Assembly: GCF_009914755.1 (NCBI RefSeq)
Contig: NC_060926.1
Origin: the human T2T-CHM13v2.0 reference genome, Homo sapiens
Strand: one strand, 5' to 3'
DNA: 64,000 bases
Under the pieces are notes generated by a model. That model searched no databases. It worked only from the letters and a program-made list of their open reading frames with translations, and was not told the origin of the DNA. The position numbers were made by a program, and so were the translations under genes. Position 1 is the first letter of the stretch, and every line of letters begins with the position of its first letter. Below, one piece after another: positions 10,530 through 53,119 of this stretch.

Positions 10530-11698
10530 TGCCATCTCATTGCCTTTTACTGTGGCAGAATTAATTATATTTAATCATTTTTAGTTTTCAGGATAGAATT
10601 AAAAAAATCTTGACACATTTGGCAAACAAACAAAATGAATTAACAATAACAATAATGGTGTTAACAGCTAGTGGAAATAAGTAAATTTACTCAGTGCTTT
10701 TCAGTAAATATGTATAATTCTAATCTTTTAAGTATAATAACTTAATAGAAATCTTTTTTTACAATATTATTTAAGGTAAGATACTAAATACTAAATGCTA
10801 CAGTAAAATACTAAAGTATGAATTTGCCATTATTCTGATTTTAGTTCTGGAAGTTGTTTTATTGTTGTGTCTTCTCTTCTTAGAGTCAATGGATTTTAAA
10901 GTAGAAAAAAATGTTTTTTCCTCTTGAAAACAACAACAGCAGCTATATTTTGGATTATGCAAAATAAGTATTCATCAAGGATTATTCAATTCGATTCATA
11001 CATTCACTATGCTTGGCTCTGATGTGAAGCCTATACACGTGCAAAATGTTTGAAATGTGAGCACTGCTCAATGGCTGTTTCACAACACATGTGAAGAAGT
11101 AGTTAATTTCTATAGACAAATGTTAAAGATTAGAAGCTTAAGTAATTATTATTCTTTATTTTACTAATGCTAGTGAAAAGTTTATCTTTGTCCACTCCCT
11201 GTATCAAATTTGAATAAATCATGTTAAAGCGCCATGGAAATAAAAAGTCTTTCAGTATCCATTGTTACTTATTTTTAAAAAACATTGGGTCCCACAGAAC
11301 TGAGCAATCAAAAATTATTTCTAACTTTTCTCATGTTCTGAGCCATGCATTCTTGGTAAAAGGAATGAAAGCAGTCCCTTTACTTATCATTTACCATATC
11401 TTAAAATTAACTCTGAAACTGAGAGAAGAATGATTCATTCTTTTTAAGGTTATTCCTACTTACTTCAAACCAAATAAAATCTTTTAGACAAGTGATTGAT
11501 TTGCTAAAGTCAATATTTAGTAAACTAAAAGAGCAGATCTTTCAGAATTTATTGTGTCCCAATACAGTAATAATAAGAGCTCTTTATCTCTGTGGCATGA
11601 TAGTTCTATATCAGCTGAATTTCAGTTTAAAAATAAATTATATATTATTTTATGAATATAAAATATATAATCATTACAGAAATCTTGAAGAATTGAAA

Positions 11699-11711
11699 TA
11701 CACACACACAG

Positions 11712-11742
<31 letters not shown>
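11699..11742. repeat. (CA)n microsatellite
   Basis: About 20 CA units with one interruption. Confidence 0.95.
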
Positions 11743-11744
<2 letters not shown>

Positions 11745-11788
11745 TATATAGTATACACTACAAAATATAAACCACCTGTAGAATAACC

Positions 11789-12997: not shown

Positions 12998-13026
12998 GTG
13001 TATGAATGTCTATCTCTCTTTCTCTC

Positions 13027-13027
13027 T

Positions 13028-13073
<46 letters not shown>

Positions 13074-13081
13074 ATGTGTGT
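13027..13081. repeat. (TG)n microsatellite
   Basis: About 19 uninterrupted TG units. Confidence 0.95.
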
Positions 13082-13891
13082 ATAAATCCATATAAATATG
13101 TATAAGTATACTAATTTACTAAATTAGTCTATGCCTCTTTCAATATTTGAATTCTAATTTTGTTTTTTTGAGAAATTTGAACATGAATTATGAAAAAGAA
13201 AAACTGCGGGACTTGATAGTGACAGCCAAGTAATAAACATAGATAACCTTTATTTTTATCCTTGCTATGTGCATGGCTTTGGGGGAATTTACTTCATAAG
13301 CTCTGGGGACAGTCATGGTAATATATCTTCACTGGAAGAGTTTCTGTGGGTATCATGTAAGCCACACATCTTCTATGAAAAACCGTGAACATCTCGTGCT
13401 GATACAATTTATACTTTTATTTATAAATTGAGAATGCAGCTTAAGTCACAACTGCTGAAATATGAAGGGTTTATCTCTAGATTAGTTTAATGTGAATACT
13501 AACTTAAATCTATACTAATACTTGCTTATGTATATGCTTATAATAGTCATACTAGACCCTTAAGATGGGTAGGGCAGATACTCAAATCCTTAGTTTTTAA
13601 AGGCTGAATTGAGATTTTAATTCGAAAGTAAATAAATTTTTAAATGAAATATTTGGAAAAAGTAAACATGGGTTAGCCACATATATTTACATCCCCTTTC
13701 TCCCTAGATTTCATTCAAATGGTAGAAAATAAACAGAAAATATAAATAAGAGTATCCAATTTTGATGAAAAAGGATAAAAGAATCAGAGTAAAAAAGAAT
13801 TCCAAATGAAGAAACATAATGCCAGGCCCAGAAGAAACTTCACAGATAACTGTATTTAATAGCCTAAGGAGGATAAGAATATAGTTTGTAC

Positions 13892-40803: not shown

Positions 40804-41100
<297 letters not shown>

Positions 41101-41827: not shown

Positions 41828-41958
41828 TGTATATATAAATATATATATATAAAACCACCATTATATATATATATATCACCATAGATTATGATGTCATATA
41901 TATATATATAAACCACCATTAGTGTTATATATATATGACACTATACATATGTTAGCAT

Positions 41959-42003
<45 letters not shown>

Positions 42004-42062
42004 CTCTAATGCTGGTTTATATATATGACATCATAATCTAAATATATATATATGACATCTAA
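41828..42062. repeat. Complex TA-rich repeat with internal palindrome and (AT)20 core
   Basis: Units tatataaaccaccatta and tatatgacatc; inverted arms at 41882 and ending at 42040. Confidence 0.9.
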
Positions 42063-44438: not shown

Positions 44439-44755
<317 letters not shown>

Positions 44756-45505
44756 GAATTAGAAATTCTAACATGTTCTCTCAGTACCACAAGAAATTAT
44801 TTGGAGAACCCACTAGAATACACACATCTTGCTTGAGGAACCACTGGCCTCAGGACATAGGCTTAAAGTAAATCAACAAAAATTAACTACATACATATAA
44901 GCATATCTTCCTAATTTTTGCATTGCGTGACCTAACTATAATCTATAGCATATCTTTCCATGCCCAGATCTATTTCTGAACTGTTATATGACATCTCCAC
45001 ACAGTTCATACTTGCTTTGACTATGACCTAAATTCCTAGCCTGTTCCCTGGATAGTTTCTCAGTAGTGCAGGACTATAAATGCACAGTCACTGTGTGTAC
45101 AAGTTATATGGGAATATAACAAGTTATGTGTTAATAAAAATTATTTAGAAATAAAACGAAAATTATAAACAATTTGTACTAATACTATATTTTTTCTGTT
45201 ATACAACATAGTGACATGAAAAACAAATATAATAATGGCTTAATTGTAAAGTATATAATAATAGTTTATCTGATTTGACCCTCCATATACTGTATGAGGG
45301 CCTTAAACCTCTTTCATGATACTTTCCATCTAATTATGGCTATTGTCAGGGTGTGTCTGATGTATGCCTCAGGAAACATCCTCAGTCACCAGCTGGTATT
45401 AATAGTTTTGTCTCTCTGTTCTGATTCTTTTCATAATATTTGGAATTTTGTCTTCCACTACCTGTACAAGGGCAAGGCAACTCATCTGTTAGTAAGAGAT
45501 AACTT

Positions 45506-45810
<305 letters not shown>

Positions 45811-48568: not shown

Positions 48569-49899
48569 GCCCATGCCTAGGACTAGGTCTTATCATCCGC
48601 AGTGAGAGATTATAGGCTCTTACTAGGAATTTATGGTAACATGGGCTCCTAACAGTCATGATTTTTATAACATGATTGCCTATGTATATAAAGTCCACTG
48701 GCTGAACAAGTATTTTCCCTCAAATCAGGAAGGAAAAAAAAAAACACGAAGCAAATTGATCCTCTTCTAAAAGCTGTCACATCAGTAACCCATCATATTC
48801 TCATTTACTTATATACTGAGTAGGTAGTCACCTTTGATTCATATCTCTCAGGAGTTCAGAAGTTTTTGAAAGTAATTTGTGATACAAAATATAGGGAAAT
48901 TCAGAATGAGATTCTTTTGGCTTGTCTTTCTTTTTCTTTTTTTCTTTTTTTTTTTTTTATTTGTTGAACTCAAATCCGGAAATTGTGGAGGTTACTAGAA
49001 CTCTAAGTCACAGACTTATAAGTACTGAAAAAGTAGTCAGTAAAGAAAACATACAGTAAGAGACTAGGTTAATTTTCCTATAGTTCATTGATGTTTCCAC
49101 TATTACTGCCCCTGATTTTTAACTTTAGTTTTCCTTAGATTGTTGGAGTAATATATGTACCTTAAAAATTAACTGTGGAACAAGTAGATGAACTTTTTAC
49201 ACAATTTCCTGCTTTTATAAAGTTCCTACTAGCTATATTTTCCCAAAAGTGCTCAACAATAGAGTCTGGTGCTAAAAAGCAGAGTAGGCTAAATTTAGAT
49301 CAATGTGAAATGCCCTACTTATTTCCTATGAACTTAATTGATTGAGCTCATTTTGGGGGTGTCTTTCTGATCGACCAGAAACTTGGCTCATTAGAGCAAC
49401 TCACAAAGTGACCTTTTAAAAGAAAGAGTTTTCAATATATTTGTTCATGTTCCATTCCACTGAGAATGGTGCTATTTAAAACTAAATACAATAATTTTAG
49501 ATATTGTACAGCAGATATAATTTTAAACATAATACATGGGATTTCGATTTTAGGTACTGTTTATAAGGCATTTCTCCTTATATTATTCTAGACTTAAATA
49601 TAACAAATTTCATGCAGAGGTTTCTTTCAAAAGTAAATTCAGCCACATTTAGACTCAAATATTCCCTAATTTTTTAGTGTAGCTGAAGTCCTAATAATAT
49701 ACTTGTGTTTCTTTTAAATTAAGTCCCACATGTTAACTTTACAGCAGAAAGTCCATGTATCGTATTATTAGTCTAAATCTTCATTTTACTGTTTAGTTAA
49801 CACAGACATTCATTTAACACACTATGTTTAATTTCCCACTCAGTTTTGGCTTATTGTAGTCTAATAAACAATGATTAAACAATGCCCCACTTAATGCAG

Positions 49900-50082
49900 G
49901 TTGAGAAATAAGTGAAACTATGACATGGAAAAATATTACAATAAGCGAAAAATATTACAATAAAGGAAAAAATAATGGAAGAATATCAGTATTTGATGCT
50001 ATTATACGTGACCATATTGTTTAGCAAACTACTTCAAAAATGAAATTAGGAATTTCAGAGAATCATTTTATTCTCATATCAG
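49900..50082 (+). repeat. Left arm of a 183-bp inverted repeat
   Basis: Reverse complement of 50801-50983 at 179/183 positions, no gaps. Confidence 0.98.
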
Positions 50083-50219
50083 AATGCTTGGAAAAGTGAG
50101 GGCTAAATGTATTTGTTATTTGACTGTGTACATTATGCCCATGGAATAGCATTTTGGAAGACCCAACATTAAGCTAGCTTTACATAACAATGAGTATGTC
50201 ATGTTAACTTATGATACAC

Positions 50220-50415
50220 TTTAATCCTGGCTTGACTCTGGTAGCTGTGTGACTATAATCTTTCAGGCCTCCATTTACTTATCCAGAAAGTGGAAATAAT
50301 AATATGTAATTAATAGATGCCTGGTGAATATTAAATTCATTAATATTTGTCAACTATTTTTCACAGACTTTTCATTTAGTTAAGTACACAATAATAAGTA
50401 AGCACTCATATATGA
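50220..50415 (+). mobile_element. MIR SINE inside the inverted-repeat spacer
   Basis: ttaatcctggcttgactctggtagctgtgtgact...gcctccatttacttatccagaaagtggaaataataat...taagcactca. Confidence 0.75.
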
Positions 50416-50800
50416 ATGTGTGTACATATTTATCGTAAACAGATCCTCAGTAATTAGTGTAGAAATAAATGTTCTAGACAATCCAAAGTTATTTAAAGTT
50501 TTTCAGAAAGCTACCCTTCTATCATCTGGGGTAATTTTTTTTGTCATTTTGGCAAATATGTAGAGAATATATGTGAGTCTTCCTATTAGTCTGAAGTAAG
50601 CAAAACTATAAAGGCACATTTATCGAGGTGGAATGTGAAAAACAACAATCATTTTAACGTAAATCTATGATACTTTGGTCTCTTCCAGTGTCCAGGTAAC
50701 TTATGCCACAACTTTCTTCTATCTTTGTTAATAATACAGTGTGTTTTATACCTGTGGGCACTAACATTTTGTTACTATTTGTAGTAATGCTACTGCATTA

Positions 50801-50983
50801 CTGATATGAGAATAAAATGATTCTCTGAAATTCCTAATTTCATTTTTGAAGTAATTTGCTAAACAATATGGTCACGTATAATAGCATCAAATATTGATAT
50901 TCTTCCATTATTTTTTCCTTTATTGTAATATTTTTCACTTATTGTAATATTTTTCCATGTCATAGTTTCACTTATTTGTCAAC
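50801..50983 (-). repeat. Right arm of the 183-bp inverted repeat
   Basis: Mismatches only at 49905/50978, 49946/50937, 49989/50894 and 50029/50854. Confidence 0.98.
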
Positions 50984-51477
50984 ATACTATGTATCCATGA
51001 ATGTCCTGAAGGGAAAAAAAAATCTCATATATACCTAACTGATGTGCTTGACATATAGTAAGTTGTCCATAAGTATTTGCTGGTAGATTTATTTATTTTT
51101 TAAAAAAACAACTTGGAAAGTTTTCTGTGTGCTTTTATATTAGAACTTGACCTTTGAAGTACCTCCAGGAAATTTTGAAGAGTGCTGGCATATGACAATG
51201 CGTAAGTTTATATTTCATGTCCATGCATGCCATTAAAATTCTAATAATGTAGTTGACAGAGCCTTTCTTGTCCCTTAAGCACTAAATTTGTGGCTTGCTC
51301 TAGATTGTCCCACCTGGCACAAGCTAGGTGAAATTTCAGGTCTAGCCAACTTTTTTCTTTTTTTTTTTTTAACAAGTATTAAAAACATTTTCATATATAT
51401 TCCCTGTATTATTTCACCTATTTTTGTGTGTGTGTTTCTATCACACTGCCACATCAAAAACCTCTTCTTGAACGACT

Positions 51478-51690
51478 ATAGTATAGTGATTAATAGTTCA
51501 GTGTCTAGATCAAGACCACCTATGGACGTATCTTGGCTCTGATTTTACCAGCCGTACAATCCTGGAGAATCTGTTCAAGAGAAATGTGCCTCAATTACGT
51601 ATCTCTAAAGTAGTTGTAGCTATAGAACCTGTTCCATAGATGTGGATCAGAACACTGCATGACATTTAGAAAATGTTTAATAAATGATGT
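51478..51690 (+). mobile_element. MIR SINE
   Basis: atagtatagtgattaatagttcagtgtctagatcaagac...tgtgcctcaattacgtatctctaaag...gtttaataaatg. Confidence 0.7.
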
Positions 51691-53119
51691 TGCTGTACTT
51701 GTTGCTGTTATTGTTGCTCTGTCATGTTAGGAGAACTCTCATTTACCCTAGTGTTCTCTCAAAGTGAAATACAGATCATTACCTCTTGAAATCATGTCCA
51801 AGTAACTTCAGAATTATTTAGAAATCATTTATCTAAATCAGAGTATTTCTTGATATAATTTAAAGTTGATTGTATTTGAAAGTACATATGTCAATCTAGT
51901 ATGAGATAATCTCAAGGAAATAAAAATGTATAGGTCTAATTTACATTTTTATATGGAAGGAGATAATTACTTTCTATCACAAATGATGAAGGCTGACGTT
52001 TGTTTCTTTTTTACTTTTAATTTTCACTTATATTTTGTTTATTATCAATATTTGCTTTTTAAAAGGTGGGAAGAAATCAACCAATCAAACATTAAAAAGC
52101 AATATGGAGGAGGGTGATATAATGCCCACTTATATTTCTCTTATAATTTTAAATATTTTCATAATTAACAGAATAATTAGCACTGGTAATATTAAAATAC
52201 CATCAAAAGAATCTAAATGTATGTGCTTTCTGTTGCAGCCTTGTTAGATGTTTCAGTGGATTCAAAGTGTTGTTATAAGAAAACGTGATTTATCAAGACT
52301 TTCATGTGTAAAATAAAAGGCATTTTCAATGACTACTTGGCCAGGCTTTCAGATTCCAATGCCAAGATGTTGTATTTTGATATTGCAGTTTTCTAACAAC
52401 AACAAAGTTGAGTGGACTTCTGGAACTAAAACTTAAATATTCAGAACTAATTATCACCACTCTATTTCTTACAGAGCATTTAAGGAACACATATATGCAT
52501 ATATCCTTGCACTTTGTGCTACAGGTTGTGAGCCAGGGTTACTTCCTTCTGACCATGTGGGTTCATAATGAAGACCCAACCTTAAGGTACCCAGGGCTTA
52601 GAAATCAAATTTGTCCTTAGGACACTTTGGAAATCTATCTTGTAGTACAGGTGACCCAGCAGCAATCAATCTTTCTGCCATCCCTAGTTTTACTTCAGGA
52701 CCCAGAAAAGTTGTAACTTGTTTCCTTTCCTGTGATCAAGCCTTTGTTTTCTCTTTTTTTCTCCACTTTTTGTAGCTTTTTAATTTGTTTCTCTGTTGAT
52801 TACTAGCCCAATGCCTGAGCATCTTCGTCTTAAGACAAAGCCTCTGTGTTTCTTCAGCTCCTGAAATGACTGGCATGCTGAAAATGAGCTCAGGGCATTA
52901 GTCTTTGCTACTAAGCCACTACAGATTCCATTCCCTTTCTTCCTGAGTATGCACACACCGCTTGTTCACAGACTCCAGATTAGTTATTAAGCTACATCTG
53001 TATGCAGTTTGCACTCTCCTGCCTTCGACCTGCTTGTCCCAGAAGTTATTCACCATATTCTACCTTGATCATATTTTCTACTTGTCAATGCGCATGTCAA
53101 TTAAGAACTTTTAACATTT

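What the first reader, a model, noticed from the sequence alone, without database searches (positions are those of the whole stretch)
49900..50983. 183-bp, 97.8%-identical inverted repeat in apparently unique DNA around a 718-bp ancient spacer
Seen: 49900-50082 is the ungapped reverse complement of 50801-50983 with only 4 mismatches (3 transitions). Homology continues 5 more nt (aatgc) after a 1-nt gap. The arms resemble no repeat I recognise, there is no TSD, and the spacer holds a heavily decayed MIR. Known: primate DNA transposons are too old to keep arms 98% identical, and close, highly identical inverted repeats are substrates for recurrent inversion and arm-to-arm gene conversion. Inference: this is either a recent template-switch inverted duplication or an old palindrome homogenised by conversion. 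It could be a flip-flop micro-inversion. If transcribed, it would form a long non-Alu dsRNA stem (ADAR or Dicer substrate).
Basis: partly seen in the sequence, partly recalled or inferred. Interest (0 to 1): 0.8.

Follow-up and report, generated by a model that had tools for sequence, protein, structure and literature searches.

The report
Scar of an old micro-inversion
The inverted repeat is real and unique in the human genome, but it looks like the leftover duplication from a single roughly 900-base inversion some ten million years ago, which is an ordinary, already described kind of mutation scar.

Summary
49900-50082 is the reverse complement of 50801-50983: 183 nt, 4 mismatches, 3 of them transitions. 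A gapped alignment reaches 189 nt. A search of the whole T2T genome finds only these two copies, so the arms are not ends of a multi-copy element.

New here: the 8-mer TAATGCAG (49892-49899) abuts the outer end of the left arm. Its reverse complement (50793-50800) abuts the inner end of the right arm. The layout d1 | rc(d2) | rc(spacer) | rc(d1) | d2 is the signature of one inversion with duplicated breakpoints (staggered-break model, dupINVdup). By chance this geometry occurs in 119 of 2,000,000 random placements. An abutting match of 8 nt or more in any of five junction layouts occurs in 174 of 300,000.

Homology stops sharply at the arm ends, and the arms are not GC-enriched. Both argue against an old palindrome kept alike by conversion. 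Arm divergence gives about 11 My (CI 3-28) at 1e-9 per site per year.

No outgroup or haplotype data could be reached. Ancestral orientation, polymorphism, transcription and editing are therefore untested. This is a new member of a known kind, of low to moderate interest.

The parts
49892..49899 (+). d1: 8-mer TAATGCAG, the retained copy of the small breakpoint duplication. It abuts the outer end of the left arm (junction J1 = 49899|49900).
   Evidence: identical to the reverse complement of 50793-50800. The chance of this abutting geometry is 119 of 2,000,000 random placements.
49900..50082 (.). Left arm: inverted copy of the right arm (rc of d2). In the model it is continuous with the spacer, as part of the inverted block.
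   Evidence: 183 nt, 4 mismatches. Only two copies in the 3.1-Gb genome.
49928..49971 (+). 19-bp tandem duplication (2.3 copies) inside the left arm. It is mirrored at 50912-50956 in the right arm, so it predates the arm duplication.
   Evidence: TRF; pairs I2 and I3.
50083..50087 (+). AATGC: the 5-nt continuation of arm homology after a 1-nt gap. In the model this is ancestral sequence next to d2 that shares microhomology (GCATT) with the end of rc(d1) at junction J2.
   Evidence: A 5-nt abutting match alone is weak (chance 2.0e-3).
50083..50792 (.). Spacer proper (710 nt): unique old DNA, inferred to lie inverted relative to its ancestral orientation. It holds a MIR-like core at about 50215-50360 (recalled, not tested).
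   Evidence: Unique in the genome. No internal or flank homology. The inversion is inferred from the junction layout.
49900..50800 (.). The whole inferred inverted block (901 nt) = rc(d1 + spacer + d2).
   Evidence: Inference. Not verified with an outgroup.
50783..50802 (.). Short palindrome at junction J2 (8-bp stem, 4-nt loop today). Its core, TAATGC-4 nt-GCATTA, would have sat at the first breakpoint in the inferred ancestral arrangement.
   Evidence: ssDNA hairpin -6.9 kcal/mol, z = -5.06, 0 of 200 shuffles fold as well. TAATGC at 50785, GCATTA at 50795.
50793..50800 (-). rc(d1): CTGCATTA, the inverted copy of the 8-mer. It abuts the inner end of the right arm (junction J2 = 50800|50801).
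50801..50983 (.). Right arm (d2). It is inferred to be the copy still in ancestral position and orientation, continuous with the right flank.
   Evidence: Polarity is inferred from the layout.

Best explanation
The repeat is the scar of one ancient micro-inversion that duplicated its own breakpoints.

Inferred ancestral order: X - d1 (TAATGCAG) - S (about 710 bp of old unique DNA with a MIR) - d2 (183 bp) - Y.

In one event the 901-bp block d1+S+d2 was re-inserted upside down. One extra copy of d1 stayed on the left and one extra copy of d2 stayed on the right. This gives X - d1 | rc(d2) - rc(S) - rc(d1) | d2 - Y, which is exactly what the window shows.

Two known routes give this product:
[quoted passage not shown] This is the Ranz et al. 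2007 model.
- One replicative template-switch excursion. In four-point notation (my derivation) the order is 3-1-4-2: the nascent strand leaves after d1, copies the other strand backwards from the end of d2 to the start of d1, then returns to the start of d2. The return may have been helped by the 5-nt GCATT microhomology.

A short hairpin-forming palindrome at the first breakpoint may have triggered the break or stall.

Shown: the repeat, its uniqueness, the 8-nt shifted inverted duplicate, and the sharp boundaries. Inferred: the inversion itself, its polarity, that it was a single event, and the date of roughly 10 My. The repeat probably has no function. It sits in an intron of the lncRNA NRXN1-DT (hub annotation) in a gene-poor region.
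For: (1) Layout. TAATGCAG at 49892-49899 abuts the left arm's outer end. Its reverse complement at 50793-50800 abuts the right arm's inner end. This is the d1|rc(d2)...rc(d1)|d2 order predicted by the model. A plain inverted duplication would not produce it.

(2) Chance.
- An exact 8-mer in that geometry occurs in 119 of 2,000,000 random placements in the window (5.95e-5).
- A match of 8 nt or more in any of 5 junction layouts (2 inversion-type, 3 TSD-type) occurs in 174 of 300,000 placements (5.8e-4).
- TAATGC and GCATTA occur 13 and 18 times in 64 kb, and three of these sit at the junctions.

(3) The duplicated sequence is ancestrally unique. There are only 2 matches in the 3.1-Gb assembly for the arm, and nothing else for 49600-51300 at E<=10.

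(4) Sharp ends. Local alignment of 300 nt outside the arms is no better than shuffles: outer flanks 173 of 300 shuffles >= observed, inner flanks 70 of 300.

(5) Precedent.
- 17 of 29 Drosophila inversions carry inverted duplications of non-repetitive breakpoint sequence, 46 bp to about 1.9 kb, median 321 bp. These are explained by staggered breaks and said to polarise the inversion (PMC1885836, passages).
- Inversions flanked by duplications (dupINV, INVdup, dupINVdup) are a recognised human complex-SV class (PMC5338099, passages).
- In a 45-inversion human survey, 18 of the non-homologous ones carried small insertions or deletions, attributed to one FoSTeS/MMBIR event (PMC6748972, passages).

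(6) A hairpin-capable palindrome lies at the junction (z = -5.06, 0 of 200 shuffles).
Against: - No outgroup or second haplotype could be examined. The inversion and its polarity rest on one 8-mer plus layout logic, and I found the pattern post hoc by reading the junctions.
- Six of the 8 nt also belong to a local palindrome. A third AATGC copy sits at 50083. A motif-driven coincidence, or a more complex history, is therefore not excluded.
- Neither route fits perfectly. Junction J1 has no microhomology. If J2 used the GCATT microhomology, a 1-nt discrepancy (A at 50800 versus no T at 50083) needs a junctional insertion or a later indel. If both joins were blunt, the AATGC at 50083 is a coincidence (about 2e-3 for a 5-nt abutting match).
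- The size falls between documented classes. Short-range template switches in apes had a copied fragment of median 12 nt and maximum 128 nt (PMC7954356, passages). The human dupINVdup catalogue was built at about 5-kb resolution (PMC5338099).
Confidence: 0.6

Rival explanations
1. Plain non-tandem inverted duplication. One arm was copied by a template switch or repair synthesis and inserted about 0.7 kb away in the opposite orientation. The spacer was never inverted, and the 8-mer match is a coincidence.
For: This is a common class. [quoted passage not shown] The AATGC/GCATT overlap at the inner ends could be the priming microhomology. The arms are unique and sharply bounded.
Against: It predicts nothing at the left arm's outer flank. 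The observed abutting 8-mer would need a chance of 5.95e-5 (5.8e-4 after allowing five layouts). Copying either arm together with its flank would put the 8-mer on the wrong side of the new arm (reasoned).
Confidence: 0.14
2. Two steps. First, an inverted copy of the right arm was inserted with an 8-bp target duplication (TAATGCAG on both sides of the new arm). Later, recombination between the two 183-bp arms flipped the spacer into today's arrangement. This would be direct evidence that the arms have mediated at least one inversion.
For: With the spacer flipped back, the left arm is flanked by a perfect 8-bp direct repeat (reasoned). Template switches in which the return point precedes the departure point are reported as frequent in apes (PMC7954356, passages). 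Inverted repeats do mediate recurrent inversions (PMC6748972).
Against: It needs two rare events where one suffices. The arms are 183 bp, and the shortest repeat mediating an inversion in the 45-inversion survey was 654 bp. The supplements I could search list no inversion call at these T2T coordinates: 0 hits in 3 files of PMC10150506 and in 2 of 3 files of PMC12350169. That is a weak negative.
Confidence: 0.07
3. Old palindrome whose arms are kept about 98% alike by arm-to-arm gene conversion.
For: Conversion between close inverted repeats is well established (general knowledge). Three of the 4 differences are transitions, which fits slow accumulation. The age cannot be bounded without outgroups.
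Against: There is no decayed homology beyond the arm ends. Arm GC (25.7%) is below spacer GC (31.6%) and window GC (33.3%), so there is no GC-biased conversion signal. The 8-mer layout is left unexplained. The 2.2% divergence needs no conversion.
Confidence: 0.06
4. Terminal inverted repeats of a very low-copy DNA transposon or MITE, or an assembly artefact.
For: The long-TIR geometry (183-nt arms on a 1084-bp unit) superficially resembles a non-autonomous element.
Against: - There is no target-site duplication across the unit (0 nt).
- Only these two arm copies exist in the genome.
- All 10 ORF translations score below the Pfam cut-offs. None matches a transposase model.
- The interior holds an older MIR-like repeat (recalled).
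- An artefactual palindrome would have no 718-bp unique spacer and no 4 arm differences (reasoning).
Confidence: 0.03

Closest known systems
Inversions with inverted duplications at both breakpoints (staggered-break model, Ranz et al. 2007, PMC1885836)
   Same: Ancestrally unique sequence at each breakpoint is present twice in inverted orientation, flanking the inverted block. One duplication is large and one is tiny. The 183-bp duplication lies within the reported 46 bp-1.9 kb range. The scar polarises the event.
   Different: Those are Drosophila inversions of cytological size, verified with outgroup species. This one is a 0.9-kb human block inferred from a single genome.
dupINVdup / dupINV complex structural variants in humans (Brand 2015, cited only; Collins 2017, PMC5338099)
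   Same: An inversion flanked by duplications, attributed to a single replicative or repair event.
   Different: The catalogued cases were found at about 5-kb resolution, and many are large (one example is 5.1 Mb). This one is sub-kilobase, old and probably fixed. Brand 2015 was not held, so the exact class definition is partly recalled.
Short-range template-switch mutations, four-point model (Loytynoja & Goldman 2017, cited only; Walker 2021, PMC7954356)
   Same: A stretch is replaced or extended by the reverse complement of nearby sequence, which creates inverted repeats. The event can be written as switch-point order 3-1-4-2 (my derivation).
   Different: The copied fragment would be 901 nt (183 nt in the two-step rival). 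The gold-standard set has median 12 nt and maximum 128 nt.
Inverted repeats that mediate recurrent NAHR inversions (Giner-Delgado 2019, PMC6748972)
   Same: Highly identical inverted repeats bracket a short unique segment.
   Different: The arms are 183 bp, against 654 bp-24.2 kb in that set. Here the repeat is more likely the product of an inversion than its cause. No polymorphism is known.
Human-chimpanzee microinversions flanked by short inverted repeats (PMC8755829)
   Same: A small inversion with inverted repeats exactly at its edges. Template switching or microhomology-mediated break repair is proposed.
   Different: Those are 17-33 nt inversions with 3-75 nt pre-existing repeats. Here the block is 901 nt and the repeats were created by the event.
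Inverted Alu pairs as dsRNA / ADAR substrates (general knowledge, recalled)
   Same: The transcript is predicted to form a long, near-perfect intramolecular duplex (180 of 183 arm positions paired).
   Different: The sequence is non-Alu and single-copy. Its transcription and editing are unknown.

Membership tests
Inversion with duplicated breakpoints (staggered-break / dupINVdup) | Two duplicated segments, each pair in inverted orientation, arranged d1 | rc(d2) ... rc(d1) | d2 with the copies abutting the two novel junctions | tested here: met
   8-mer at 49892-49899 and 50793-50800. 183-mer at 49900-50082 and 50801-50983. All four copies abut the junctions.
Inversion with duplicated breakpoints (staggered-break / dupINVdup) | The duplicated sequences are ancestrally unique, not dispersed repeats | tested here: met
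   only the two arm copies in 3.1 Gb. The search is a lower bound and is blind to old, diverged repeats.
Inversion with duplicated breakpoints (staggered-break / dupINVdup) | The intervening segment is inverted relative to the ancestral (outgroup) arrangement, which has single copies of d1 and d2 | not testable with these tools
NAHR-mediated recurrent (flip-flop) inversion | Inverted repeats long and similar enough for homologous recombination | tested here: inconclusive
   Identity is 97.8%. Arm length is 183 bp, against a minimum of 654 bp among 24 NAHR inversions (PMC6748972).
NAHR-mediated recurrent (flip-flop) inversion | Both spacer orientations present among haplotypes or species | not testable with these tools
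   Only supplement text searches were possible: 0 hits for T2T coordinates 51694-51697 in PMC10150506 (3 files) and PMC12350169 (2 of 3 files).
DNA transposon / MITE with terminal inverted repeats | Target-site duplication flanking the element | tested here: not met
   the direct match between the outer flanks is 0 nt.
DNA transposon / MITE with terminal inverted repeats | Multiple copies in the genome, or transposase remnants | tested here: not met
   no other copy; 0 of 10 ORF translations reach a Pfam cut-off.
Palindrome maintained by gene conversion | Arms more alike than their age allows; species-specific changes shared between arms | not testable with these tools
   This needs orthologous primate sequence.
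Palindrome maintained by gene conversion | GC enrichment of the arms from biased conversion; decayed homology at the arm edges | tested here: not met
   arm GC 25.7% vs spacer 31.6%; flank alignments no better than shuffles.
Short-range template-switch mutation (four-point model) | Reverse-complement copy of nearby sequence with switch points definable on the ancestor | tested here: inconclusive
   The pattern fits. The copied length (183 or 901 nt) exceeds the reported maximum of 128 nt, and the ancestor is unknown.
Long dsRNA / ADAR substrate | Long near-perfect intramolecular duplex in the transcript | tested here: met
   180 of 183 arm positions pair with their mirror partner. MFE is -423.8 kcal/mol on the + strand, and 181 of 183 pair on the - strand.
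Long dsRNA / ADAR substrate | Transcribed, with A-to-I edited sites | not testable with these tools
   The hub table places the window inside the NRXN1-DT span with no exon in it. No expression or editing data are available.

The most novel reading that the evidence does not exclude
The 183-bp arms are still an active switch. The 0.7-kb spacer toggles between orientations in living humans or apes, through repeats far shorter than any known to drive recurrent human inversions. The intronic NRXN1-DT transcript folds into a single-copy, non-Alu 183-bp dsRNA that is edited or sensed. The two-step rival (duplication, then a recombination flip) would already be one recorded toggle.
Probability: 0.05. 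Interest if true: 0.6.

Novelty: new member of a known kind. Interest (0 to 1): 0.27.

Why it matters
Taken alone, this is one neutral-looking scar in a lncRNA intron, so it matters little. Two modest points follow.

First, a highly identical inverted repeat around a short unique segment should not be read automatically as a substrate or cause of inversion. Here the junction layout says the repeat was made by the inversion. This is the point Ranz et al. made for Drosophila, and catalogues that label every repeat-flanked inversion as NAHR can miss it.

Second, the shifted small duplicate lets a fixed, cryptic sub-kilobase inversion be detected and polarised from a single genome. That size class falls between short-range template-switch surveys (128 nt or less) and complex-SV catalogues (about 5 kb and up), so such events may be under-counted.

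Tried and rejected
One search was an input error.
- Outgroup or haplotype comparison: no tool holds primate or other human assemblies. The own genome 'has no relatives here'.
- Rfam over 49000-52000 at E<=1: one sub-threshold hit outside the feature (CLRN1-AS1, 16.2 bits vs gathering score 48, E = 0.53). Treated as chance.
- Pfam on 10 of the 11 stop-to-stop ORFs of 40 aa or more in 49600-51300: nothing reaches a cut-off. Best is gag-asp_proteas at 14.7 vs 28.2 bits. The eleventh ORF (51241-51378, - strand) was left out.
- Sensitive BLAST of the arm, spacer and flanks against the window: only AT-rich matches with E>=6.7e-4, none informative.
- Published inversion calls: 0 hits for numbers beginning 51694-51697 in the held supplements of PMC10150506 and PMC12350169. 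One PDF was unreadable. Tables in GRCh38 coordinates would not match, so this is only a weak negative.
- The T2T repeat map of PMC11794170 requires 200 bp or more, so it would not list this pair (abstract).
- Base-rate scan: I planned about 1.8 Mb of neighbouring chr2 but only 200 kb was granted. In that 200 kb there were 0 inverted pairs with arms >=80 nt, >=90% identity and spacer <=5 kb, against 1 in the window. The sample is too small for a rate.
- Rejected on reasoning: hAT-type insertion (the arm has no terminal inverted repeats of its own); L1-mediated insertion (no poly-A); circular or rolling-circle intermediates (no support).
- Brand 2015 could not be read.

Full report
1. THE OBSERVATION

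The inverted repeat is real. The repeat finder gives arms 49900-50082 and 50801-50983, 183 nt, 98% complementary, 718 nt apart. A direct comparison finds four mismatches:
- 49905 G/C, a transversion;
- 49946 C/T, at a CpG kept in the left arm;
- 49989 G/A;
- 50029 C/T.

The homology resumes for AATGC after a 1-nt gap. Gapped BLAST then gives 189 columns at 97.35%. Each arm carries the same 19-bp tandem duplication (49928-49971 and 50912-50956), so that duplication predates the arm copy. No other inverted pair in the window has arms >=80 nt, >=90% identity and spacer <=5 kb. The remaining long pairs are Alu-like or microsatellite matches at 72-93%.

2. IS IT A KNOWN REPEAT?

The window's own assembly could be searched (3.1 Gb, 24 contigs). 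The locus is chr2:51,695,900-51,696,983.
- The arm has exactly two matches, itself and the other arm.
- A 1701-bp query covering the unit and its flanks finds nothing else at E<=10.

That search skips very common words and did not report the spacer's presumed MIR. It therefore excludes a young or middle-aged family but not an ancient, diverged one. Two independent ancient insertions, however, could not be 98% alike.

Other checks were negative:
- No target-site duplication across the unit (0 nt).
- No Rfam family at threshold.
- No Pfam domain above cut-off in 10 of the 11 local ORFs, all that were scanned.

3. WHAT THE JUNCTIONS SAY

The 8 nt just outside the left arm (49892-49899, TAATGCAG) are the exact reverse complement of the 8 nt just inside the right arm (50793-50800). 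The repeat is thus not symmetric at its ends.

The full order is d1 | rc(d2) | rc(S) | rc(d1) | d2. This is what results if an ancestral block d1-S-d2 is inverted while one extra copy of d1 stays on the left and one extra copy of d2 stays on the right.

A simple inverted duplication cannot produce this order. Copying either arm together with its flank would place the 8-mer on the other side of the new arm.

Chance is small:
- An exact 8-mer in this geometry occurred in 119 of 2,000,000 random placements in the window.
- A match of 8 nt or more in any of five junction layouts that I would have found interesting occurred in 174 of 300,000 placements.
- The hexamers TAATGC and GCATTA occur only 13 and 18 times in 64 kb, yet three of these sit at the junctions.

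4. MECHANISM

Two described routes give this product.

(a) Staggered single-strand breaks at both sites, fill-in, and joining in the wrong orientation. Ranz et al. proposed this for the 17 of 29 Drosophila inversions that carry inverted duplications of non-repetitive breakpoint sequence. Those duplications ranged from 46 bp to about 1.9 kb, with a median of 321 bp. In 12 inversions only one breakpoint was visibly duplicated. The authors note that the duplications polarise the inversion (PMC1885836, passages). Here the staggers would be 8 nt and 183 nt. Blunt joins then reproduce both junctions to the base.

(b) One replicative template-switch excursion (FoSTeS/MMBIR). In the four-point notation of Walker et al. 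(PMC7954356, passages) I derive the order 3-1-4-2: leave after d1, copy backwards from the end of d2 to the start of d1 (901 nt), and return to the start of d2. The AATGC next to the left arm (50083-50087) is then the ancestral sequence just upstream of d2. It shares GCATT with the end of rc(d1), which offers 5 nt of microhomology for the return.

Neither route fits perfectly. Route (b) needs a 1-nt junctional insertion or a later indel. Route (a) leaves the AATGC as a coincidence of about 2e-3. Junction J1 has no microhomology.

A palindrome lies at J2 (hairpin -6.9 kcal/mol, z = -5.06, 0 of 200 shuffles). Its 6-bp core would have sat at the first breakpoint in the inferred ancestor, which makes it a plausible stall or break site. 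This is inference.

In humans, inversions flanked by duplications are a recognised complex-SV class (PMC5338099, passages). Brand 2015 was not held. Eighteen non-homologous inversions in a 45-inversion survey carried small insertions or deletions, ascribed to a single FoSTeS/MMBIR event (PMC6748972, passages).

5. RIVALS

- Plain non-tandem inverted duplication. This class is common: 21 of 166 local rearrangements in one cell line (PMC5829575, passages). It leaves the 8-mer to chance.
- Two steps: insertion with an 8-bp target duplication, then recombination between the arms. This gives the same sequence, and flipping the spacer back does put a perfect 8-bp direct repeat around the left arm. 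But it needs two rare events. It also needs recombination through 183-bp arms, when the shortest repeat among 24 NAHR inversions was 654 bp.
- Old palindrome kept alike by conversion. It predicts fuzzy edges and GC-enriched arms. Instead the flanks align no better than shuffles (outer 173 of 300, inner 70 of 300 shuffles >= observed). Arm GC is 25.7%, against 31.6% for the spacer and 33.3% for the window.
- Transposon ends or an assembly artefact.

6. AGE AND CONSEQUENCES

Four differences in 183 nt (2.2%; Poisson 95% CI 0.6-5.6%) give the following ages if no conversion occurred:
- about 11 My (CI 3-28) at 1e-9 per site per year;
- about 22 My (CI 6-56) at 0.5e-9 per site per year.

This suggests an event of ape or Old World primate ancestry rather than a human novelty.

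As RNA, 180 of 183 arm positions pair with their mirror partner on the + strand and 181 of 183 on the - strand. The duplex energy is -272 kcal/mol. Single-stranded DNA folds the same way. By the hub table, the locus lies inside the span of NRXN1-DT with no exon in the window. A dsRNA stem is therefore physically possible if that intron is transcribed, but nothing here shows expression, editing or processing.

No inversion call at these T2T coordinates appears in the held supplements of two inversion and SV papers, which is a weak negative. The published T2T repeat map starts at 200 bp and would not list this pair (PMC11794170, abstract and section 6).

7. HOW UNUSUAL

In 200 kb of chr2 sequence about 0.8-1 Mb upstream I found 0 comparable inverted pairs, against 1 in the 64-kb window. 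Such single-copy, high-identity inverted pairs seem uncommon but not exotic.

8. VERDICT

The best reading (confidence about 0.6) is a single ancient micro-inversion of about 900 bp with duplicated breakpoints. This is a new member of a known kind, probably neutral and fixed.

The decisive test is alignment to ape and monkey assemblies and to human haplotypes, which I could not run. The model makes a sharp prediction for it: one 8-mer, a reversed spacer, and a single right-oriented arm in lineages older than the event.

Noticed in passing
window 41830-42030: AT-rich block: a long (TA)n run flanked by imperfect inverted copies of short unique motifs (for example AAACCACCATTAG... / ...CTAATGCTGGTTT). 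Several 76-82% inverted pairs have spacers of 0-91 nt. It looks like a palindromic AT-rich repeat that could form hairpins.
   Followed up: partly
window 11692-11751 and 13010-13105: An (AC)n microsatellite and a (GT)n/(CT)n microsatellite lie about 1.27 kb apart. Together they form a low-complexity inverted pair at 79-93%.
   Followed up: no
window 40807-41035 vs 44496-44725 and 45501-45792: Inverted pairs of Alu-like sequence (family by recall). The two long pairs (174-185 nt) are 81-82% alike, and shorter matching segments range from 72% to 90%. Spacers are 3.5-4.6 kb. These are the ordinary kind of inverted repeat, in contrast with the finding.
   Followed up: no
window 49218-49299 (+): Sub-threshold Rfam match to the CLRN1-AS1 conserved region (16.2 bits vs gathering score 48, E = 0.53). 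Most likely chance.
   Followed up: no
window 50783-50802: An 8-bp-stem, 4-nt-loop palindrome sits exactly at the inner junction of the right arm (ssDNA -6.9 kcal/mol, z = -5.06). Two of its 8 stem pairs exist only because of the new junction.
   Followed up: yes
L006-L025 (own genome, contig 2: 50,696,001-50,896,000): 200 kb of neighbouring sequence holds no inverted pair with arms >=80 nt, >=90% identity and spacer <=5 kb.
   Followed up: yes
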